Positions 2,064-28,056 of a DNA stretch of 64,000 nt are shown here, piece after piece (position 1 is the first letter of the stretch; every line of letters starts with the position of its first letter). This DNA is from Escherichia coli. Lineage in GTDB: Bacteria; Pseudomonadota; Gammaproteobacteria; Enterobacterales; Enterobacteriaceae. Both the position numbers and the translations under genes were made by a program. The notes under the pieces were generated by a model that worked only from the letters and a program-made list of their open reading frames with translations, was not told the DNA's origin and made no database searches. Location: NCBI RefSeq assembly GCF_009931435.1, contig NZ_CP043414.1; one strand, 5' to 3'.

Positions 2064-3149
2064 ATGACATTACTCGCTTCGCTGCGCGACTGGCTTAAGG
2101 CGCAACAACTGGATGCGGTGCTTCTCTCCTCACGGCAGAACAAACAACCGCATCTGGGGATCTCCACCGGATCAGGCTATGTGGTGATTAGCCGTGAAAG
2201 TGCGCACATTCTGGTGGATTCGCGCTATTACGCGGATGTAGAAGCCCGCACGCAAGGCTACCAGCTGCATTTGCTTGACGCGACGAACACGCTTACCACT
2301 ATCGTCAGGCAAATCATTGCCGATGAGCAGTTGCAAACGCTCGGTTTTGAAGGCCAGCAGGTAAGTTGGGAAACCGCGCACCGCTGGCAGTCTGAACTCA
2401 ATGCGAAATTGGTAAGCGCCACGCCGGATGTGCTGCGGCAAATCAAAACGCCAGAGGAGGTGGAGAAAATCCGCCTCGCCTGTGGGATTGCCGATCGCGG
2501 TGCAGAGCATATTCGCCGCTTTATTCAGGCGGGGATGAGCGAATGCGAGATTGCTGCTGAACTGGAGTGGTTTATGCGCCAGCAGGGCGCAGAAAAAGCC
2601 TCTTTTGACACCATTGTCGCCAGTGGCTGGCGTGGGGCGCTGCCGCACGGCAAAGCCAGCGACAAGATTGTTGCAGCGGGCGAGTTTGTCACTCTTGATT
2701 TTGGTGCGCTGTATCAGGGCTACTGCTCTGATATGACGCGTACCTTGCTGGTGAATGGCGAAGGGGTGAGCGCCGAATCTCACCCGCTGTTTGATGTGTA
2801 TAACATTGTCCTGCAGGCACAGCTCGCGGCAATCTCCGCGATTCGCCCCGGCGTGCGCTGCCAGCAGGTTGACGACGCCGCGCGCCGGGTCATTACAGAA
2901 GCCGGTTATGGCGACTATTTCGGTCATAACACCGGTCATGCTATCGGCATTGAAGTCCATGAAGATCCGCGTTTTTCACCGCGGGACACCACGACGCTAC
3001 AGCCAGGGATGTTACTGACCGTGGAGCCGGGGATTTATTTGCCAGGGCGAGGGGGCGTGCGCATCGAAGATGTCGTGCTGGTTACCCCGCAAGGCGCGGA
3101 AGTGCTCTACGCCATGCCAAAAACAGTGTTGCTCACGGGAGAGGCATAA
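2064..3149 (+). CDS. ypdF: Xaa-Pro aminopeptidase (M24 family)
   Basis: 361 aa; metal-ligand motifs of M24 peptidases (HNTGHAIG...VEPGIY); synteny. Confidence 0.85.
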
Positions 3150-13999: not shown

Positions 14000-14142
14000 A
14001 GAAAGTTATCCTGAGAATGGCTCACTGAGAACCTACGATGTTATGGCTGTATTTACATTTAATTAATCAGTATTTACATCGATATAATAAATGACATCTC
14101 TTTGTGGTATATAAGAATAGTTCTCTGCGACAGGAAGCATAT

Positions 14143-14160
14143 TCCTACAATTGTAAGACT
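14143..14160. promoter_or_regulatory. EvgA-box-like inverted repeat upstream of yfdX
   Basis: TTCCTACA-AT-TGTAAGAC versus the published 18-bp EvgA box (TTCYTACA-N2-TGTARGAA), 15/16 half-site matches. Confidence 0.55.
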
Positions 14161-14294
14161 AAAATACTTCTTGCGATAATAACTACAACTGTAAGATAAC
14201 CCTTTCAAAATGACCGTTGCTCTCTGATTTCTCATTTCATGCTCACCCAATATGATGGCGGCGTTTTCTAAAACTGTTAAAGAATGAGGTAAGT

Positions 14295-14927
14295 ATGAAA
14301 CGTTTAATTATGGCTACGATGGTCACAGCGATTTTGGCATCATCAACTGTATGGGCTGCTGATAATGCACCGGTAGCAGCACAACAGCAAACTCAGCAAG
14401 TTCAGCAAACCCAGAAAACTGTAGCAGCAGAGCGTATCTCTGAACAGGGTTTATATGCGATGCGTGACGTGCAGGTAGCGCGCCTGGCTCTGTTTCATGG
14501 CGATCCGGAAAAGGCAAAAGAACTGACCAATGAAGCTTCCGCTTTGCTGTCAGATGACAGTACTGAATGGGCAAAGTTCGCTAAACCAGGTAAAAAGACC
14601 AATATCAATGATGACCAATATATTGTCATTAATGCATCTGTCGGAATTTCTGAGAGTTATGTAGCGACACCAGAAAAAGAAGCAGCGATAAAAATTGCGA
14701 ATGAAAAAATGGCGAAAGGAGATAAAAAGGGCGCAATGGAAGAGCTTCGCCTGGCCGGTGTTGGCGTAATGGAAAACCAATATCTGATGCCGCTTAAACA
14801 GACTCGTAATGCACTTGCTGATGCGCAGAAACTGCTTGATAAAAAGCAATACTACGAGGCAAACCTGGCGCTTAAAGGTGCGGAAGATGGAATCATCGTC
14901 GATAGCGAAGCACTGTTTGTGAACTAA
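14295..14927 (+). CDS. yfdX: Periplasmic YfdX-family protein (EvgA regulon)
   Basis: 210 aa with signal peptide ([21 protein letters not shown]); Q-rich N-terminal region; synteny. Confidence 0.85.
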
Positions 14928-15171: not shown

Positions 15172-15189
15172 TTCTTACAGTTGTAAGAA
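15172..15189. promoter_or_regulatory. EvgA box (perfect half-sites) upstream of frc
   Basis: TTCTTACA-GT-TGTAAGAA, both half-sites exact matches to the EvgA consensus; about 250 bp upstream of the frc start. Confidence 0.65.
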
Positions 15190-15440: not shown

Positions 15441-16691
15441 ATGTCAACTCCACTTCAAGGAATTAAAGTTCTCGATTTCACCGGTGTGCAATCTGGCCCA
15501 TCTTGTACTCAGATGCTGGCGTGGTTTGGCGCTGACGTCATTAAAATTGAACGTCCCGGCGTTGGTGACGTAACGCGTCGCCAGCTGCGAGATATTCCTG
15601 ATATCGATGCACTTTACTTCACCATGCTTAACAGCAACAAACGTTCTATTGAATTAAATACCAAAACAGCGGAAGGCAAAGAGGTAATGGAAAAGCTGAT
15701 CCGCGAAGCTGATATCTTAGTCGAGAACTTTCATCCAGGGGCCATTGATCACATGGGCTTCACCTGGGAGCATATTCAGGAAATCAATCCACGTTTGATT
15801 TTTGGTTCGATCAAAGGGTTTGATGAGTGTTCGCCTTATGTGAATGTAAAAGCCTATGAAAACGTTGCTCAGGCAGCGGGTGGCGCGGCATCCACTACGG
15901 GTTTTTGGGACGGCCCGCCGCTGGTAAGCGCTGCAGCGTTGGGTGACAGCAACACCGGAATGCATTTGCTGATCGGTTTACTTGCTGCTTTGCTGCATCG
16001 CGAAAAAACGGGGCGTGGGCAACGAGTTACCATGTCAATGCAGGATGCCGTGTTGAACCTTTGCCGCGTGAAATTACGTGACCAGCAGCGCCTCGATAAG
16101 CTGGGTTATCTGGAAGAATACCCGCAGTATCCGAATGGCACATTTGGCGACGCAGTACCACGCGGTGGTAATGCGGGTGGTGGCGGTCAGCCTGGCTGGA
16201 TCCTGAAATGTAAAGGCTGGGAAACCGATCCTAACGCCTATATTTATTTCACTATTCAGGAGCAAAACTGGGAAAACACCTGTAAAGCTATCGGCAAACC
16301 AGAATGGATTACCGATCCGGCATACAGTACAGCTCATGCCCGACAGCCACATATTTTCGATATTTTTGCTGAAATCGAAAAATACACTGTCACTATTGAT
16401 AAACATGAAGCGGTGGCCTATTTGACTCAGTTTGATATTCCTTGTGCACCGGTTTTAAGTATGAAAGAAATTTCACTTGATCCCTCTTTGCGCCAAAGTG
16501 GCAGTGTTGTCGAAGTGGAGCAACCGTTGCGTGGAAAATATCTGACAGTTGGTTGTCCAATGAAATTCTCTGCCTTTACGCCGGATATTAAAGCTGCGCC
16601 GCTATTAGGTGAACATACCGCTGCTGTATTGCAGGAGCTGGGTTATAGCGACGATGAAATTGCTGCAATGAAGCAAAACCACGCCATCTGA
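15441..16691 (+). CDS. frc: Formyl-CoA:oxalate CoA-transferase (family III CoA-transferase)
   Basis: 416 aa; CaiB/BaiF family motifs; synteny with oxc. Confidence 0.9.
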
Positions 16692-20726: not shown

Positions 20727-23700
20727 TTAGTCATTTTGTTGACAGAAAACCGCAATCTCCTGGTCTAACTCTGCAATGTGTTCTTTAACAGAGTTCAGCA
20801 ACTTAAGAATTTCAGGCTTGCTGTCATCTGAAACGGGCGTTATTTCTAACTGGTGGCTAAGATTAATCAACTTTTGCAAATTCAGGATGTTAGCCGCACC
20901 GTGGATGCGATGAATACACTGATGGAAAGTTCTGTTATCGCCAGCTTCTAACGCATGAAACGCAGCGGGTAGATCTTTATGCGTTTCATGCTGGAAAGTC
21001 ATGAGAATCTCCTGCATCAGTTGTAGATCGTTCGCCGTATTATTTTTCAGGGCCTCGATATCAAGGTGGCGATACTGAGGTGCAATATGCGCAACCTGGT
21101 GTAACTGACTTAAATGTGTTTTCAGTACATCCAGGGTTAACGGTTTGAACAAACATAAGTTCATGCCGCAATTTAACCCTTTTTCACGTTCGTTAGCCTG
21201 TGCGTTGGCTGTAAGCCCCCAGATGGGTAAGGAAGAATTTTGCTCACGGAGTTTGCGAGTCAACTCAAAACCATCCATATTCGGCATATTAACGTCAGTA
21301 ATAAGCAGATCATAATGTTGCATACTGACTTTGTGTAGCGCTTGCACACCATCAGTTGCTTCATCAACATCATATCCTAATAGGTTTAGCTGGCGTTTGA
21401 GTAATAGCCTGTTGGTCGGATGATCATCCGCGATTAATATGCTCAACTTTTCAGGGAGTGTCATAGGTTGTTCTGCTTTTGCCTCGACAGTCGCCACTTG
21501 TTGGGTAATTTCTACCGGGATTGTGATCGTAAATGTCGTTCCTATGCCTGGATGACTTTCTAATGACAAATCGCCCTGCATGTTTTTAATTAATTCTTTG
21601 CAGATCATTAAGCCTAAACCAGAACCTGTTTGCTGACGACCTGCTGTTGTTTGGCTATAGCGTTTAAACAGTTGTTGTTGTTCTTCCTGCGATAATCCGC
21701 TTCCGGTGTCCATAATGGTCATTTTGATAACAGCGTGGTTGTCATCAATATGAACCAGGGAAGTCGTAATTTTTACTGCCCCCTCGGTGGTAAATTTAAG
21801 GGCATTACTCAGTAAATTAGACAGCACCTGCTTAAATGCTTGAGGGTCGATTTTAACCAGGTAGCGTTCAGGAAGCGTGCTGCTGCAATTTAATGCGATG
21901 GATTTGCTTGCAGCAATCGCACCGAAAGAATGACAAGTGTTTTGGACTAAAGTAGGGATATCGACCCATTGTGGTTGAAGTTGATAGTTACCCGACTCAA
22001 TTTTGTCGACATCAAGGATTTCACCAATTAAGCCGAGGAGCGACTGTCCGGTGGCGTAAGCAAGTGAAATCGCCTCCACACGTTGCTCCTTGCTAAGACC
22101 TGAACCCGACAGAAGTTCCAGGAAGCCCATAATGGAGCTTATTGGTGTTCTTATTTCGTGACTCATTGTTGCCAGGAACTGGCTTTTTGCGACAGTTGCA
22201 TTGATCGCTTTATTTCTTTCTACTTCGAGTGCATGAATTAAATCACGCGTCTCGGTAATATCTTGCCAACCACAAATATATACTGCATTGTCACTTGCAG
22301 GTAAATTACATAATGTATGCCAATGATTAATGCATCTTTTTTCAGTACCATTATTAATTTCAAAAACTTGGCTATATATTGTTCTGTTTTCTTTCGTTTC
22401 TGCTGTGACTTCATGCACATTAGAAAAAACATCTTTAAAGGGGGAGTCACTGTTTTCTAATGGTAACATTGCATTTTTGTAGTAATCAGCAGTGAAATAA
22501 TGTTCAAATGCACTATTGTGACTAATGACATTACCTTGCCAGTTTACAACATAAGTTGGATTCGGTAAGGAATCCGAGAGTGCTTTCCGGAATGATATTT
22601 GGTTTTCTAAATCACCCTGAATTACCTTACGACGACGAACTGAGCGTAACAGGTAGAATCCCCATAAAAGGCTACTGCCAACTAATAAAACGGATAAAGT
22701 CGTAACAATGTAAAATTGCTCACTATAGAGGTCCCATGTGTCAATGGTCACATTGGGCATTTTGATCCATTTTTCCGTCAGGCGCAGAACTTCGCTTGGG
22801 GGAATTGCATTCAATGCTTTATTAATAATATCCTTAAGTTCTGGTTCTCCGCGAGGAAAAGCGAACGAAAGCGATGCATTCTCAACGCCGGGAATAAGAA
22901 AATGATAAAGCTCATTAGGATAGTAATGGTCGATCATGTAACGCGAATTTAGCTGTGTCGCGACCAGGGCATCAAGTTCACCTTCCTTAACCTTGTGAAA
23001 TGCAGCGCTAGCATTATCGACTTGTATCCACTCAACCTCCGGATACATCTCTTTCAATTGCGAATGAAGCTCATAATAATATGGAATGGCAACTTTCATT
23101 CCTTTTTTTAAAGTTTGTTCACTATCAGGCGCTTTTTGCATGACGAAAACGTAAGGCGTTGTTATGAAGGCTTCAGCAAATAAAACATTATTTTCTCGAT
23201 CTTCACTATAAATAGCACCAGGTAATATATCCCATCCACCGGGATTAAGCTGTGTTCCGGCATGGATATTGTGTGAAACGGTGATCGGAGAAAAATTTAA
23301 ACCTGTTTGCAAGGTAATAATATTAAGAATATCCCCCATAACGCCCCGAACCGAGCCATTTTCATCAGTCATAGAATAGGGAGGGGAGTAAGGATTTTCC
23401 AGCACCTTTAAATCGGGATGTTGCTTAATCCACTGTTTTTCATGTTCAGTGAGTTCTAATGGTTTGTTCAGAAAGGCCAGGTTTCCTGTATCAAGCCAAT
23501 TTTGTGATACTTCATAGCGAACTTCATTTGTTAAAGCATCAACAAACCGATTGAGTACTTCATTAAGAATGACGGATTCTTTTCTGGTCAAGAAAAAATT
23601 ATATTGACGCGGCGAGTTATAATATTTCACTACATTTAAGGAGTGAGTGAAATAGCGGGAAATCATACTGCTGGTAATGATGTTACTACCAATAAAGTAA

Positions 23701-24320
23701 TCATTATGTCCGGTAGAAACGGATGCTAATGCCTGATATAAATTTGTAAAAGAGATAATTGTTGCTTTTGGAAATGATTGATGAATTACCTCGTCTGGGG
23801 GGTAATTTGCTACCCGAGCAATATTTACTGGTTTTGGTGAGGTAAGCGGTCGCATTGAGTCGTGAAGGGTGGTTACCAGCGCCGGAAAGGTAATTATCAA
23901 TGGTTTGGTTGCAGCAATGTCATTATTAAGAGGCGGAGAAGTAACTAAATGTGATAACACTATATCGACTTCACCTTCTGCAAGCGCGTCCATTGCTTTT
24001 TGATGATCTGCGTATTCCCGGAGTGTTAATTTGATATTTAACGCTCTTTTTAAAAGATTTAAATAATCCGCATTAATACCACGAACCCGTTGCTGCGAAT
24101 CGGTATGCAACAACGTAGCCGTTTGGGACTTGTGTACTGCAATCACAAGATTTTTTTTGCTCGCTAACCAACGTAATTCCTTGTTGCTCAGACGTAGTGG
24201 ATCAAGCGTGACACGGTTGTTACTACTGATGCCACGATATTCGATGTAATCTTCGTCTGCGAAACTTATGGTCGACCAAAGACCACAACAGAGAAGAAAA
24301 AAATAGGGTAAAAACTTCAT
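20727..24320 (-). CDS. evgS: Hybrid sensor histidine kinase (two periplasmic solute-binding domains, HisKA, HATPase, receiver, HPt)
   Basis: 1197 aa; H-box (ATMSHEIRTP), receiver (LLITDVNMPNMDGFELTRKLR) and C-terminal HPt. Confidence 0.95.
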   Translation of the reverse strand: MKFLPYFFLLCCGLWSTISFADEDYIEYRGISSNNRVTLDPLRLSNKELRWLASKKNLVIAVHKSQTATLLHTDSQQRVRGINADYLNLLKRALNIKLTLREYADHQKAMDALAEGEVDIVLSHLVTSPPLNNDIAATKPLIITFPALVTTLHDSMRPLTSPKPVNIARVANYPPDEVIHQSFPKATIISFTNLYQALASVSTGHNDYFIGSNIITSSMISRYFTHSLNVVKYYNSPRQYNFFLTRKESVILNEVLNRFVDALTNEVRYEVSQNWLDTGNLAFLNKPLELTEHEKQWIKQHPDLKVLENPYSPPYSMTDENGSVRGVMGDILNIITLQTGLNFSPITVSHNIHAGTQLNPGGWDILPGAIYSEDRENNVLFAEAFITTPYVFVMQKAPDSEQTLKKGMKVAIPYYYELHSQLKEMYPEVEWIQVDNASAAFHKVKEGELDALVATQLNSRYMIDHYYPNELYHFLIPGVENASLSFAFPRGEPELKDIINKALNAIPPSEVLRLTEKWIKMPNVTIDTWDLYSEQFYIVTTLSVLLVGSSLLWGFYLLRSVRRRKVIQGDLENQISFRKALSDSLPNPTYVVNWQGNVISHNSAFEHYFTADYYKNAMLPLENSDSPFKDVFSNVHEVTAETKENRTIYSQVFEINNGTEKRCINHWHTLCNLPASDNAVYICGWQDITETRDLIHALEVERNKAINATVAKSQFLATMSHEIRTPISSIMGFLELLSGSGLSKEQRVEAISLAYATGQSLLGLIGEILDVDKIESGNYQLQPQWVDIPTLVQNTCHSFGAIAASKSIALNCSSTLPERYLVKIDPQAFKQVLSNLLSNALKFTTEGAVKITTSLVHIDDNHAVIKMTIMDTGSGLSQEEQQQLFKRYSQTTAGRQQTGSGLGLMICKELIKNMQGDLSLESHPGIGTTFTITIPVEITQQVATVEAKAEQPMTLPEKLSILIADDHPTNRLLLKRQLNLLGYDVDEATDGVQALHKVSMQHYDLLITDVNMPNMDGFELTRKLREQNSSLPIWGLTANAQANEREKGLNCGMNLCLFKPLTLDVLKTHLSQLHQVAHIAPQYRHLDIEALKNNTANDLQLMQEILMTFQHETHKDLPAAFHALEAGDNRTFHQCIHRIHGAANILNLQKLINLSHQLEITPVSDDSKPEILKLLNSVKEHIAELDQEIAVFCQQND

Positions 24321-24324
24321 GTGA

Positions 24325-24939
24325 TTAGCCGATTTTGTTACGTTGCGCGAATGTGTAAAGATCCATCAGTGATTTACATTCTAATTTTTCCATCAGGCGA
24401 CTTTTATACGTGCTGACAGTTTTGTTGCTGATGAACATTTTTTCCGCAATGTCATTATTGTCCTTGCCATCAAGAATATACCTCATGACACTAATTTCTT
24501 GTTTCGATAAGGAGTCGAGTTTTTGCTGGTCGGACGTTAAACTTCCAACAAACCGGTTGAGAGAGAAAGGGAAATAGCAGTAGCCATTTTTTGCAGCTTC
24601 AATAGCCGCAATGATATTGTTCATGCCTTCTTTTTTACTCACGAATCCATTAGCGCCTGCATCAGCACAATGTTTCCCGTAAAAATGGTCATTTTTAGCG
24701 GAGACGATAATAATAATTCCGCTATATTGGCGCTTCCTCAGCGTTTCTAACACCTGGATACCGTTAACTCCGGGGATATCGACATCAATGATGACGATAT
24801 CAGGTTTAAGTGTTTCCACCCGCTGAACGGCACTTCCCCCTTCAGTCAACTCCGCTAAGATTTCAATATCGTTTTTGATCAATAAATTACGGATTGCTGC
24901 GATAGCAAGAGGATGGTCATCAATAATTATTGCGTTCAT
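24325..24939 (-). CDS. evgA: NarL/FixJ-family response regulator
   Basis: 204 aa; receiver domain plus LuxR-type HTH; immediately downstream of evgS on the same strand. Confidence 0.95.
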   Translation of the reverse strand: MNAIIIDDHPLAIAAIRNLLIKNDIEILAELTEGGSAVQRVETLKPDIVIIDVDIPGVNGIQVLETLRKRQYSGIIIIVSAKNDHFYGKHCADAGANGFVSKKEGMNNIIAAIEAAKNGYCYFPFSLNRFVGSLTSDQQKLDSLSKQEISVMRYILDGKDNNDIAEKMFISNKTVSTYKSRLMEKLECKSLMDLYTFAQRNKIG

Positions 24940-25163
24940 AGATTATTCCCTTTGCAATGAAGCATCTCCCTTCTCCCTGTAGTAATACAGACATAAGGCA
25001 TCATCTCATTTTCTCAATCAAAATAAGAAAATTTGAGCTTCCTTTAAGATAATTCAAAAAGTATACCATATAAATAGTCGGCATAAATGAAATGTCAACA
25101 ATAAAATCAGGGATAATACCGCTAACTTATAGTTTCAAATGAGTACTATAAGGCTTCTTATTA

Positions 25164-25181
25164 ATCCTACAGGCGTAAGAA
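25164..25181. promoter_or_regulatory. EvgA-box-like inverted repeat in the evgA / emrK divergent region
   Basis: ATCCTACA-GG-CGTAAGAA, 14/16 half-site matches to the EvgA consensus. Confidence 0.5.
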
Positions 25182-25354
25182 TTGTATTGCAAAAGTCACG
25201 GTTTAGTCCTCTGTTGTATCTTCTGCAACTCCTTTAAATTAGGCCTCCAACGTTCCTGGGATAATGTGTAACACATGCACTGTGTTTGATATGAAGAATG
25301 AATACTCTTTTCATTCAATTCATAAATTTCATCTATGCGAAATGAGAGATAATA

Positions 25355-26518
25355 GTGGAACAGATTAATTCAAATAAAAAACATTCTGACAGAAGAAAAT
25401 ATTTTGCTTTATTAGCAGTGGTTTTATTTATTGCGTTTTCAGGAGCCTATGCCTATTGGTCACTGGAATTAGAAGACATGATTAGTACAGATGACGCCTA
25501 TGTTACGGGGAATGCTGATCCAATTTCTGCACAAGTCTCAGGCAGTGTCACTGTCGTTAATCATAAAGATACGAACTTTGTTCGACAGGGTGACATTTTA
25601 GTTTCACTGGATAAAACTGATGCTACGATTGCACTCAATAAAGCTAAAAATAATCTGGCAAATATTGTGCGACAAACGAATAAACTATACTTACAGGATA
25701 AACAATACAGTGCCGAAGTCGCTTCAGCACGTATCCAGTATCAACAATCTTTAGAAGATTATAATCGTCGTGTGCCGCTAGCAAAGCAGGGGGTTATTTC
25801 AAAAGAAACGCTGGAGCACACCAAAGATACGTTAATAAGTAGCAAAGCGGCATTGAATGCAGCTATTCAGGCTTATAAAGCGAACAAAGCCTTAGTAATG
25901 AACACACCATTAAATCGCCAGCCACAAGTTGTTGAAGCTGCGGATGCAACCAAAGAAGCCTGGTTAGCGCTTAAGCGTACGGATATTAAGAGTCCGGTTA
26001 CTGGTTATATTGCCCAGCGAAGTGTGCAGGTTGGCGAAACAGTGAGTCCTGGACAATCGTTAATGGCTGTCGTACCGGCACGTCAAATGTGGGTTAATGC
26101 CAACTTTAAAGAAACACAACTCACGGATGTACGGATTGGTCAATCGGTTAATATAATCAGCGATCTTTATGGTGAAAATGTTGTGTTTCATGGTCGGGTG
26201 ACAGGGATCAATATGGGAACCGGCAATGCGTTCTCCTTATTACCTGCACAAAATGCGACAGGGAACTGGATCAAAATCGTTCAGCGTGTACCGGTTGAGG
26301 TGTCTCTGGATCCAAAAGAACTCATGGAACATCCCTTGCGCATTGGTTTATCGATGACTGCAACCATTGATACCAAGAACGAAGACATTGCCGATATGCC
26401 TGATCTGGCTTCATCCGTGACGTCCATGCCTGCTTACACCAGTAAGGCCTTAGTTATCGATACCAGTCCGATAGAAAAAGAGATTAACAACATTATTTCT
26501 CATAATGGACAACTTTAA
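25355..26518 (+). CDS. emrK: Multidrug efflux membrane fusion protein (EmrA family)
   Basis: 387 aa from a GTG start; HlyD-family periplasmic adaptor; stop overlaps the emrY start. Confidence 0.85.
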   Translation: MEQINSNKKHSDRRKYFALLAVVLFIAFSGAYAYWSLELEDMISTDDAYVTGNADPISAQVSGSVTVVNHKDTNFVRQGDILVSLDKTDATIALNKAKNNLANIVRQTNKLYLQDKQYSAEVASARIQYQQSLEDYNRRVPLAKQGVISKETLEHTKDTLISSKAALNAAIQAYKANKALVMNTPLNRQPQVVEAADATKEAWLALKRTDIKSPVTGYIAQRSVQVGETVSPGQSLMAVVPARQMWVNANFKETQLTDVRIGQSVNIISDLYGENVVFHGRVTGINMGTGNAFSLLPAQNATGNWIKIVQRVPVEVSLDPKELMEHPLRIGLSMTATIDTKNEDIADMPDLASSVTSMPAYTSKALVIDTSPIEKEINNIISHNGQL

Positions 26519-28056
26519 TGGCAATCACTAAATCAACTCCGGCACCATTAACCGGTGGGACGTTATGGTGCGTCACTATTGCATTGTCATTAGCGACGTT
26601 TATGCAAATGTTGGACTCCACTATTTCTAACGTCGCAATACCCACAATATCTGGCTTTCTCGGAGCATCAACTGACGAAGGCACATGGGTTATCACATCG
26701 TTTGGCGTAGCAAATGCCATTGCGATCCCTGTTACCGGCAGGCTGGCACAAAGAATAGGCGAATTAAGGTTATTTTTACTATCAGTAACCTTCTTTTCGC
26801 TGTCTTCATTAATGTGTAGTCTTTCGACTAATCTTGATGTTCTTATATTTTTTAGAGTCGTCCAGGGATTAATGGCGGGGCCGTTAATTCCATTGTCACA
26901 GAGTTTATTATTAAGGAATTATCCGCCAGAAAAAAGAACATTTGCTTTGGCGTTATGGTCAATGACCGTAATTATCGCTCCGATTTGTGGGCCGATATTG
27001 GGTGGCTATATTTGTGATAACTTTAGTTGGGGATGGATATTTTTAATCAATGTCCCTATGGGGATTATCGTCCTGACATTATGTTTAACTTTACTTAAAG
27101 GAAGAGAAACTGAAACTTCACCGGTCAAAATGAATTTACCAGGGTTGACCCTGTTAGTGCTCGGTGTTGGTGGCTTGCAAATTATGCTTGATAAAGGGCG
27201 CGATCTGGATTGGTTTAACTCGAGTACAATCATAATATTAACAATAGTGTCAATTATTTCTCTGATCTCTTTAGTAATTTGGGAGTCGACCTCAGAGAAC
27301 CCAATTCTTGACCTCAGTTTATTCAAGTCGCGTAATTTCACCATTGGTATTGTGTGTATCACATGCGCATATTTATTTTACTCTGGGGCGATTGTACTTA
27401 TGCCGCAGTTGCTGCAGGAAACTATGGGGTATAATGCGATATGGGCCGGGCTTGCCTATGCGCCAATCGGCATAATGCCACTATTAATATCGCCTTTAAT
27501 AGGACGTTATGGCAACAAAATTGATATGCGTGCATTGGTTACATTTAGTTTTTTGATGTATGCGGTTTGCTATTACTGGCGTTCTGTGACATTTATGCCA
27601 ACGATTGATTTCACAGGCATCATTTTGCCACAGTTTTTCCAGGGATTCGCCGTTGCCTGTTTCTTTTTACCCTTAACAACGATTTCGTTTTCAGGGTTGC
27701 CAGATAATAAATTTGCCAATGCCTCGAGTATGAGTAATTTTTTTCGTACCCTGTCAGGATCAGTTGGTACGTCGTTGACAATGACGTTGTGGGGACGACG
27801 CGAATCGTTACACCATAGTCAGTTGACAGCAACCATCGATCAATTTAACCCCGTGTTTAATTCATCATCACAAATTATGGATAAATACTATGGTTCGCTT
27901 TCAGGGGTTCTTAATGAAATTAATAATGAAATAACCCAGCAGTCACTTTCTATTTCTGCAAATGAGATTTTCCGTATGGCGGCTATTGCTTTTATCTTAC
28001 TTACAGTTTTAGTTTGGTTCGCGAGACCGCCGTTTACAGCGAAAGGCGTTGGGTGA
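26518..28056 (+). CDS. emrY: Multidrug efflux MFS transporter (EmrB family, 14 TMS)
   Basis: 512 aa; MFS DHA2 family. Confidence 0.9.
   Translation: MAITKSTPAPLTGGTLWCVTIALSLATFMQMLDSTISNVAIPTISGFLGASTDEGTWVITSFGVANAIAIPVTGRLAQRIGELRLFLLSVTFFSLSSLMCSLSTNLDVLIFFRVVQGLMAGPLIPLSQSLLLRNYPPEKRTFALALWSMTVIIAPICGPILGGYICDNFSWGWIFLINVPMGIIVLTLCLTLLKGRETETSPVKMNLPGLTLLVLGVGGLQIMLDKGRDLDWFNSSTIIILTIVSIISLISLVIWESTSENPILDLSLFKSRNFTIGIVCITCAYLFYSGAIVLMPQLLQETMGYNAIWAGLAYAPIGIMPLLISPLIGRYGNKIDMRALVTFSFLMYAVCYYWRSVTFMPTIDFTGIILPQFFQGFAVACFFLPLTTISFSGLPDNKFANASSMSNFFRTLSGSVGTSLTMTLWGRRESLHHSQLTATIDQFNPVFNSSSQIMDKYYGSLSGVLNEINNEITQQSLSISANEIFRMAAIAFILLTVLVWFARPPFTAKGVG

What the first reader, a model, noticed from the sequence alone, without database searches (positions are those of the whole stretch)
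25164..25181. EvgA-box-like dyad in the evgA / emrK divergent promoter region
ATCCTACA-GG-CGTAAGAA (14/16 half-site matches) sits between the divergently transcribed evgAS and emrKY operons, consistent with autoregulation and emrKY activation from one shared site.
Basis: partly seen in the sequence, partly recalled or inferred. Interest (0 to 1): 0.2.

Follow-up and report, generated by a model that had tools for sequence, protein, structure and literature searches.

The report
Known EvgA operator upstream of emrKY
This 18-base imperfect palindrome is the already-described site through which the acid-sensing regulator EvgA of E. coli switches on the neighbouring emrKY efflux-pump genes; it is real and conserved, but ordinary.

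Summary
The sequence ATCCTACAGGCGTAAGAA is at 25164..25181, in the 415-nt spacer between evgA (24325..24939, -) and emrK (25355..26518, +). It matches the EvgA consensus TTCYTACA-N2-TGTARGAA at 14 of 16 specified positions. About 0.001 such matches are expected by chance in this spacer.

The only other matches in the 64 kb window lie upstream of yfdX and frc, two further documented EvgA targets. A weight matrix trained without this site ranks it as the best non-training position in the window.

Both half-site cores are invariant in 8 sampled E. coli alleles and 2 outgroup loci. About 90% of 5,417 E. coli records are identical across the box.

The 40 nt on the emrK side share an in-register pattern with the frc, yfdX, safA and ydeP promoters. 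The evgA side does not, and the box lies about 120 nt upstream of the evgA start inferred from published numbering.

Verdict: this is the known EvgA operator of emrKY. The dyad and emrKY activation are supported. Autoregulation of evgAS from the same site is not shown and does not fit the geometry well. It is already known and of low interest.

The parts
25164..25181 (.). EvgA box, ATCCTACA-GG-CGTAAGAA. It is an 18-bp imperfect dyad: distal half 25164..25171, spacer 25172..25173, emrK-proximal half 25174..25181.
   Evidence: PWM rank 4, best non-training position. It is identical in K-12. The cores CCTACA and GTAAGAA are invariant in 10 sequences.
25182..25221 (+). The 40 nt on the emrK side of the box, inferred to be the emrK core-promoter module. 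It carries CA at +9/+10, CAAAAGTCACGG at +9..+20, AGTCCT at +24..+29 (25205..25210) and T at +31, counted from the end of the box.
   Evidence: It has 17-20/40 in-register identities with the equivalent flanks of frc, yfdX (proximal box), safA and ydeP. The sum is 71 against a background of 42, reached by 2 of 20,000 shuffles. 25182..25193 is part of the best-conserved block of the untranscribed spacer.
25202..25207 (+). Candidate emrK -10 hexamer TTTAGT (inferred). It would put the box centre at about -41.5. The alternative candidate TGTTGT at 25212..25217 reads TATTAT in outgroup L003 and would put the centre at about -51.5.
   Evidence: Read directly from the sequence and the alignment. No start-site data were available, and the promoter scan did not call either hexamer.
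25355..28056 (+). The emrK (25355..26518, GTG start) and emrY (26518..28056) operon, which is the regulated target.
20727..24939 (-). The evgA (24325..24939) and evgS (20727..24320) operon, which encodes the regulator that reads the box.
   Evidence: E = 5e-132 to the PDB EvgA chains 5F64 and 8ZWN.
25053..25068 (-). The evgA promoter as mapped here. It has an extended -10 TGGTATACT (25068..25060 on the - strand) and a start at 25053. The evgL leader ORF lies at 24965..24936.
   Evidence: The start is inferred from PMC11210196 (evgL ATG = +89) combined with the K-12 evgL and evgA coordinates and the gap-free spacer alignment. The -10 is read. evgL translates to MLHCKGNNL.

Best explanation
The dyad is the operator through which phosphorylated EvgA activates the emrKY promoter. 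EvgA is a NarL/LuxR-type response regulator encoded next door. A dimer is expected to bind with one helix-turn-helix on each half-site (xxCCTACA and xGTAAGAA). The site lies immediately upstream of the emrK core promoter, with its centre about 41 to 52 nt before the inferred start. This is the same register as the EvgA boxes of frc, yfdX, safA and ydeP, so bound EvgA can contact RNA polymerase directly and turn on the pump under mildly acidic, high-K+ conditions. Shown here: the sequence, its statistical significance, its conservation, the shared register and the identity of the neighbouring genes. Taken from the literature: EvgA binds the emrKY promoter region, and emrK expression depends on EvgA. 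Inferred: dimer binding to exactly these bases, the position of the emrK start, and the polymerase contact.
For: (1) 14/16 match to the consensus. About 0.001 are expected in the spacer and 0.067 in the window, and 3 are observed.
(2) The only other window hits are at 14142 and 14180 upstream of yfdX and at 15172 (a perfect match) upstream of frc. [quoted passage not shown] This also validates the consensus, which I recalled from memory.
(3) A symmetrised PWM was trained on the frc, yfdX (two), safA and ydeP boxes, with emrK left out. It scores this site at 18.4 bits. The next untrained position in 64 kb scores 11.4.
(4) Conservation within E. coli: 4,889 of 5,417 records are identical over the 34-36 nt that include the box, and 526 differ by one base. 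The two variants I sampled hit the unspecified spacer (25172 G>T) or the flank (25183 T>C).
(5) Conservation in outgroups: two loci keep the box at the orthologous position, with changes toward the consensus. L002 reads TTCCTACAGGTGTAAGAA (0 mismatches) and L003 reads TGCCTACACGTGTAAGAA (1 mismatch). 14 of 18 columns are invariant, against 48% in the central spacer (P about 0.01).
(6) The emrK-side flank shares the in-register pattern of other EvgA-activated promoters, and the evgA-side flank does not.
(7) Literature: EvgA binds the emrKY promoter region and regulates it directly (PMC9496106, PMC5706723). An emrK-gfp fusion is silent without evgA (PMC6393483). [quoted passage not shown]
Against: None of the available tools measures protein binding. 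The primary footprint and motif papers (Kato 2000; Tanabe 1998; Masuda & Church 2003; Itou 2009) are not in the held library. I therefore could not confirm that the published footprint covers exactly 25164..25181.

The emrK transcription start is not known to me. Neither candidate -10 is strong, and the consensus promoter scan calls no sigma-70 promoter downstream of the box.

The site deviates from the consensus at two positions, so it may be a lower-affinity operator.
Confidence: 0.87

Rival explanations
1. This is the first reader's full reading: a shared bidirectional operator. The same EvgA dimer site activates emrKY and also mediates positive autoregulation of evgAS.
For: The box is the only match with <=3 mismatches in the spacer between the divergent operons. 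EvgA 'is reported to be autoregulatory' (PMC11210196). From memory, the related BvgA system uses upstream dyads with cooperative spreading toward a distant promoter.
Against: The box centre is about 119.5 nt from the evgA start mapped to 25053. The evgA-side flank is at background similarity to EvgA-dependent promoters (41 against 42). Only one further half-site-like sequence occurs in the spacer (TGTAGTAA at 24978, inside the evgA leader), and half-sites are not enriched there (P = 0.09). evgA fusions do not respond to acid (PMC11210196). The evgA transcript is unchanged in macrophages where emrK is strongly induced (PMC6393483). Outgroup L003 keeps the box but lacks the 29 nt (window 25042..25070) that hold the E. 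coli evgA -10 and start.
Confidence: 0.3
2. The box is a chance match to the consensus with no function.
For: The spacer is AT-rich (33% GC). The halves are only 5/8 self-complementary, and the repeat finder does not report the site.
Against: The expectation is about 0.001. It is the top untrained PWM hit in 64 kb. The cores are invariant across E. coli and two outgroups while flanks and spacer vary. It shares a promoter register with other EvgA targets.
Confidence: 0.02
3. The site is read mainly by another LuxR/NarL-type regulator (for example RcsB or GadE). Alternatively, EvgA acts here chiefly by displacing H-NS from the AT-rich spacer rather than by contacting RNA polymerase.
For: The half-site contains TARGAA, which from memory is also the core of the RcsB half-site. 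RcsB and NarL are the nearest solved relatives of EvgA. The spacer is AT-rich (33% against 48% GC). From memory, H-NS represses emrKY.
Against: The arrangement is TTCYTA...TARGAA with 6 nt between the hexamers. It is not the TARGAA-N2-TTCYTA order of the RcsB box, and no such arrangement occurs around the site (reading). emrK induction is fully EvgA- and EvgS-dependent (PMC6393483). The fixed register shared with four other EvgA promoters points to a defined activator-polymerase geometry.
Confidence: 0.08

Closest known systems
EvgA boxes of the E. coli EvgA regulon (ydeP, safA-ydeO, yfdX, frc/yfdWUVE, emrKY). The 18-bp inverted repeat of TTCPyTACA is from Masuda & Church 2003, recalled from memory. 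Kato 2000 reported EvgA binding at the emrKY promoter.
   Same: Same consensus, same 8-2-8 arrangement, same regulator and same type of target. The downstream register is also the same: CA at +9/+10, TC at +26/+27 and T at +31 after the box. Seen from the emrK side it shows the same asymmetry as safA and ydeP: a degenerate distal end (xxCCTACA) and a GTAAGAA promoter-proximal half.
   Different: It is the weakest of the boxes examined (18.4 bits against 20.8-28.5). It has C instead of T at position 11, in the promoter-proximal half, where all five others have T. It is also the only box that lies between divergent operons, one of which encodes the regulator itself.
BvgA sites in the Bordetella fhaB-bvgAS divergent region. 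EvgAS was named for its similarity to BvgAS (PMC9496106). The site details are from memory.
   Same: The regulator is a NarL/LuxR-type response regulator encoded divergently from a target gene. The operator is an inverted repeat with a TTCYTA-like core.
   Different: From memory, BvgA activates from a far-upstream primary dyad by cooperative occupation of weaker sites down to the -35, and it clearly autoregulates bvgAS. Here no chain of secondary half-sites is seen, and autoregulation is doubtful.
NarL 7-2-7 sites and RcsB boxes, the operators of the nearest solved relatives.
   Same: These are dimeric GerE-type HTH proteins reading short inverted repeats separated by 2 nt.
   Different: The half-site sequence differs, and for RcsB the hexamer order is opposite. 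The site does not match either (reading, with the consensuses recalled from memory).

Membership tests
EvgA box (operator of the EvgA regulon) | An 18-bp dyad matching TTCYTACA-N2-TGTARGAA. | tested here: met
   14 of 16 specified positions match. The leave-one-out PWM gives 18.4 bits, the best untrained position in 64 kb.
EvgA box (operator of the EvgA regulon) | It lies upstream of an operon that is directly activated by EvgA. | tested here: met
   The centre is 182.5 nt upstream of the emrK GTG. emrK is directly EvgA-regulated according to PMC5706723, PMC9496106 and PMC6393483.
EvgA box (operator of the EvgA regulon) | The cognate regulator is present in the genome. | tested here: met
   evgA and evgS are adjacent. 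EvgA has Response_reg + GerE domains and matches PDB EvgA at E = 5e-132.
EvgA box (operator of the EvgA regulon) | The half-sites are conserved at the orthologous position while the surrounding spacer drifts. | tested here: met
   14 of 18 columns are invariant, against 48% background. Outgroup changes move toward the consensus.
EvgA box (operator of the EvgA regulon) | It has the same register to the core promoter as other EvgA-activated promoters. | tested here: met
   The summed in-register identity is 71 against a background of 42, reached by 2 of 20,000 shuffles. The opposite flank scores 41.
EvgA box (operator of the EvgA regulon) | EvgA~P physically protects these bases, and mutating them abolishes activation. 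| not testable with these tools
   Kato 2000 is cited for EvgA binding to the emrKY promoter region, but the paper and its footprint coordinates are not held.
Shared bidirectional operator that also gives evgAS autoregulation | The site lies within activating distance of the evgA promoter. | tested here: not met
   The centre is about -119.5 from the start mapped to 25053. A chain of secondary half-sites toward that promoter is absent.
Shared bidirectional operator that also gives evgAS autoregulation | evgA transcription rises when EvgS/EvgA is activated. | tested here: inconclusive
   The evidence is from the literature only. EvgA is reported to be autoregulatory, yet evgA fusions do not respond to acid (PMC11210196). 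evgA mRNA is unchanged in macrophages (PMC6393483).
RcsB box | TARGAA-N2-TTCYTA hexamer order (consensus recalled from memory). | tested here: not met
   The hexamers occur in the opposite order with 6 nt between them.

The most novel reading that the evidence does not exclude
The emrK box may be a unidirectional operator that E. coli has deliberately weakened. Both deviations from the consensus (A at position 1, C at position 11) are present in all 8 sampled E. coli alleles. About 90% of 5,417 records are identical across the box. The two outgroup loci carry T at both positions, and one of them is a perfect palindrome. By parsimony, E. coli proper would then have fixed two affinity-lowering changes, which would raise the EvgA~P threshold for the efflux pump relative to the acid-resistance genes. 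In addition, the box would form part of a roughly 60-nt 'box + core promoter' module shared with frc, yfdX, safA and ydeP that works in one direction only, which would leave evgAS effectively unregulated by it.
Probability: 0.3. Interest if true: 0.25.

Novelty: already known. Interest (0 to 1): 0.07.

Why it matters
EvgS/EvgA sits at the top of the E. coli and Shigella acid-resistance cascade. EmrKY contributes to Shigella survival in macrophages (PMC6393483). Knowing which bases make up the operator helps interpret natural variation in this spacer, which is polymorphic enough to serve as a host-source marker (PMC11267920).

That said, the site and its role are textbook regulon knowledge. This analysis adds three things:
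- a population-scale conservation check;
- evidence that the site is oriented toward emrK rather than evgA;
- the observation that both E. coli deviations from the consensus look derived.

Tried and rejected
(1) I tried to read the primary papers: Masuda & Church 2002 and 2003, Ma 2004, Eguchi 2007 and 2011. None is held. Kato 2000, Tanabe 1998 and Itou 2009 are known to me only as references in held papers and were not requested. Full-text searches for the motif string and for 'EvgA box' or '18-bp inverted' gave nothing usable.

(2) I tried to obtain emrK and evgA start sites from the Cappable-seq supplement, but the cap on papers had been reached. The emrK start therefore remains inferred.

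(3) The consensus promoter scan found only one weak +-strand match (25078..25107), upstream of the box, and nothing downstream of it. It is not informative for an activator-dependent promoter.

(4) The unsupervised repeat search did not find the dyad. This shows the dyad is a consensus match and not a strong palindrome.

(5) I considered a third half-site, TTCTTA at 25155..25160, next to the box. I rejected it because most E. coli alleles read TTCTCA there.

(6) I looked for the box in more distant evgA homologues from Hafnia, Klebsiella, Buttiauxella and an Enterobacter MAG. There was no match with <=3 mismatches. Only the Enterobacter locus has an emrK-like neighbour. It carries a 4-mismatch sequence at a different position, which I regard as too weak to use.

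(7) I considered RcsB- and NarL-type readings and rejected them on hexamer order and sequence.

Full report
**Locus.** The window is E. coli chromosome, reversed relative to K-12. It holds evgS (20727..24320, -), evgA (24325..24939, -), a 415-nt spacer (24940..25354), emrK (25355..26518, +, GTG start) and emrY (26518..28056, +). Genomes 99.8% identical across the spacer are annotated with evgA and emrK on either side. The K-12 record gives the same order, plus the 9-codon leader ORF evgL overlapping the evgA start. EvgA carries Response_reg + GerE domains and matches the PDB EvgA chains at E = 5e-132. EmrK is a HlyD-type membrane-fusion protein.

**Observation.** 25164..25181 reads ATCCTACAGGCGTAAGAA. 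I recalled this consensus from Masuda & Church 2003. That paper is not in the held library, so I checked the consensus internally. With up to 3 mismatches the window has four hits, against 0.63 expected from dinucleotide shuffles. The other three are at 14142 (1 mismatch) and 14180 (3 mismatches), both upstream of the yfdX ORF at 14295, and at 15172 (perfect), upstream of the frc ORF at 15441. [quoted passage not shown]

**Chance.** The expected number of hits with <=2 mismatches is 0.0011 in the spacer (28 of 20,000 shuffles gave one). It is 0.067 in the window, where 3 are observed. I trained a symmetrised PWM on the frc box, the two yfdX boxes and the K-12 safA and ydeP boxes (located). With emrK left out, it scores this site at 18.4 bits, rank 4 after the three training sites in the window. 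The next position scores 11.4 bits. The dyad is only 5/8 self-complementary, and the repeat finder does not report it.

**Conservation within E. coli.** The spacer has no indels relative to K-12, and the box is identical there. The spacer as a whole is unusually polymorphic. Only 13 of 5,418 records are >=99% identical to the window allele and nearly all others are 90-95%. This fits its use as a host-source marker (PMC11267920). Even so, a 36-nt probe spanning the box is identical over its aligned 34-36 nt in 4,889 of 5,417 records and differs by one base in 526. The two one-mismatch alleles I fetched differ at the unspecified spacer base (25172 G>T) and at 25183, outside the box.

**Conservation in outgroups.**
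- L002 is labelled E. coli, but its spacer is at most 87% identical to that of any complete E. coli genome. It reads TTCCTACAGGTGTAAGAA, a perfect consensus.
- L003 is labelled Yersinia vastinensis, with EvgA 94% and EmrK 83% identical to the window proteins. It reads TGCCTACACGTGTAAGAA.
- Both boxes are at the orthologous position.
- Across 10 sequences, 14 of the 18 box columns are invariant, against 48% of columns in the central spacer (P about 0.01).
- The 24-nt windows starting at 25165..25170 score 20/24 invariant columns. No 24-nt window outside the transcribed evgA leader scores higher.

**Which promoter the box serves.** Read in the direction of each target gene, the boxes of safA (TGCCTACAGCTGTAAGAA), ydeP (AGCCTACACCTGTAAGAA) and emrK (ATCCTACAGGCGTAAGAA) share a degenerate distal end and a GTAAGAA proximal end. 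The 40 nt after the box on the emrK side have 17-20 in-register identities with the corresponding flanks of frc, yfdX (proximal box), safA and ydeP. Shared features include CA at +9/+10 in all five, CAAA.GTC.CGG with frc, AGTCYT at +24..+29 with safA and ydeP, and T at +31 in all five. The summed identity is 71. The mean for 2,906 control 40-mers is 42, and 2 of 20,000 shuffles reach 71. The evgA-side flank scores 41. I conclude that the box sits in the standard EvgA activation register for emrK. The emrK start is not known to me. The candidate -10 hexamers TTTAGT (25202..25207) and TGTTGT (25212..25217, TATTAT in L003) would put the box centre at about -41.5 or -51.5. This step is inference.

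**The evgA side.** PMC11210196 numbers the evgL start codon as +89 and uses a +1..+122 fusion. Combined with the K-12 evgL and evgA coordinates and the gap-free alignment, the start maps to K-12 2483641, which is window 25053. It is preceded at the correct distance by an extended -10, TGGTATACT (25068..25060, - strand). The box centre is then at -119.5. No run of secondary half-sites bridges this gap. [quoted passage not shown] PMC6393483 finds evgA mRNA unchanged in macrophages where emrK is strongly and EvgA-dependently induced. Outgroup L003 keeps the box but lacks the 29 nt (25042..25070) that contain this -10 and start.

**Literature support.**
- EvgA binds the emrKY promoter region and regulates it directly (Kato 2000, as cited in PMC9496106 and PMC5706723).
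- Deleting evgA or evgS abolishes emrK induction (PMC6393483).
- An EvgA binding site is found in all directly regulated genes (PMC4283999).
- I could not read the footprint coordinates themselves.

**Verdict.** It is the known EvgA operator of emrKY, so the finding is already known and of low interest. Two modest points may go beyond what is recorded. First, the operator appears to be oriented toward emrK only. Second, both E. coli deviations from the consensus are fixed in the sampled alleles and derived relative to two outgroups, which suggests a tuned, weaker site.

Noticed in passing
window 25126..25133 and 25145..25152: There is a perfect 8-nt inverted repeat, CTTATAGT / ACTATAAG, with 11 nt between the arms, just upstream of the EvgA box. 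TTATAGTTTC and ACTAT are invariant in all 10 aligned sequences. ACTATAAG also occurs at the same register (-19..-12 from the box start) upstream of the K-12 safA box. It could be a second factor's site, a weak secondary EvgA site or a divergent -10. It remains unexplained.
   Followed up: partly
window 14142..14159, 14180..14197, 15172..15189: Three further EvgA boxes were found. Two lie 38 nt apart upstream of yfdX (ATG at 14295), and one perfect palindrome lies upstream of frc (ATG at 15441). frc and the proximal yfdX box share a near-identical downstream segment, CAAA(A)TG.C.G..CTCTCTGATT.
   Followed up: partly
window 24940..25354: The window carries a rare allele of the evgA-emrK spacer. 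Only 13 of 5,418 E. coli records are >=99% identical and almost all others are 90-95%. Differences cluster at 25115..25145 and 25215..25232. The spacer is used in the literature as a host-source marker (PMC11267920).
   Followed up: partly
E. coli genome hits of window 24900..25400: 20 of about 5,440 matching places lie on records classed as plasmids. I did not check whether these are real plasmid-borne copies or misassigned replicons.
   Followed up: no
L003 (NZ_CACVAF010000001.1, labelled Yersinia vastinensis) and L007 (Rhizobium cauense, 398-bp contig): A 590-kb contig labelled Yersinia carries evgAS-emrK with 94%, 82% and 83% protein identity to E. coli. This is far higher than expected for Yersinia and points to horizontal transfer or mislabelling. 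The Rhizobium contig encodes a 100% identical EvgA N-terminus and is probably contamination.
   Followed up: no
L003 relative to window 25042..25070: The outgroup lacks 29 nt that include the E. coli evgA extended -10 and mapped start. It must therefore transcribe evgA from another promoter.
   Followed up: no
window 24936..24965 (-): The evgL leader ORF (MLHCKGNNL) is intact, and its stop overlaps the evgA ATG. It is the leader peptide whose translation is coupled to evgA and repressed by CsrA (PMC11210196).
   Followed up: yes
window 26431..26448 and 27998..28015: There are two sub-threshold PWM hits inside coding sequence: TGCTTACACCAGTAAGGC near the end of emrK (10.6 bits) and TACTTACAGTTTTAGTTT near the end of emrY (11.4 bits). 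They are probably chance matches.
   Followed up: no
L006 about 2913..2930 (Enterobacter sp. MAG): GGACTACAGACGTAGGAA (4 mismatches, with the same C at position 11) lies about 75 nt upstream of a 68%-identical evgA homologue that is divergent from an emrK-like gene. It is too weak and too differently placed to call.
   Followed up: partly
window 25078..25107 (+): This is the only sigma-70-like consensus match in the spacer, TCGGCA-N18-TAAAAT. It points toward emrK but lies upstream of the EvgA box. It may relate to the EvgA-independent, growth-phase-dependent emrKY transcription reported by Tanabe 1997 (reference seen).
   Followed up: no
K-12 coordinate 2480972 (U00096.2), inside emrK: Genomic SELEX reports a very strong RpoS-holoenzyme peak (intensity 126.6) assigned to evgA (PMC5493296). 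This is consistent with the sigma-S evgA promoter mentioned in PMC11210196.
   Followed up: no
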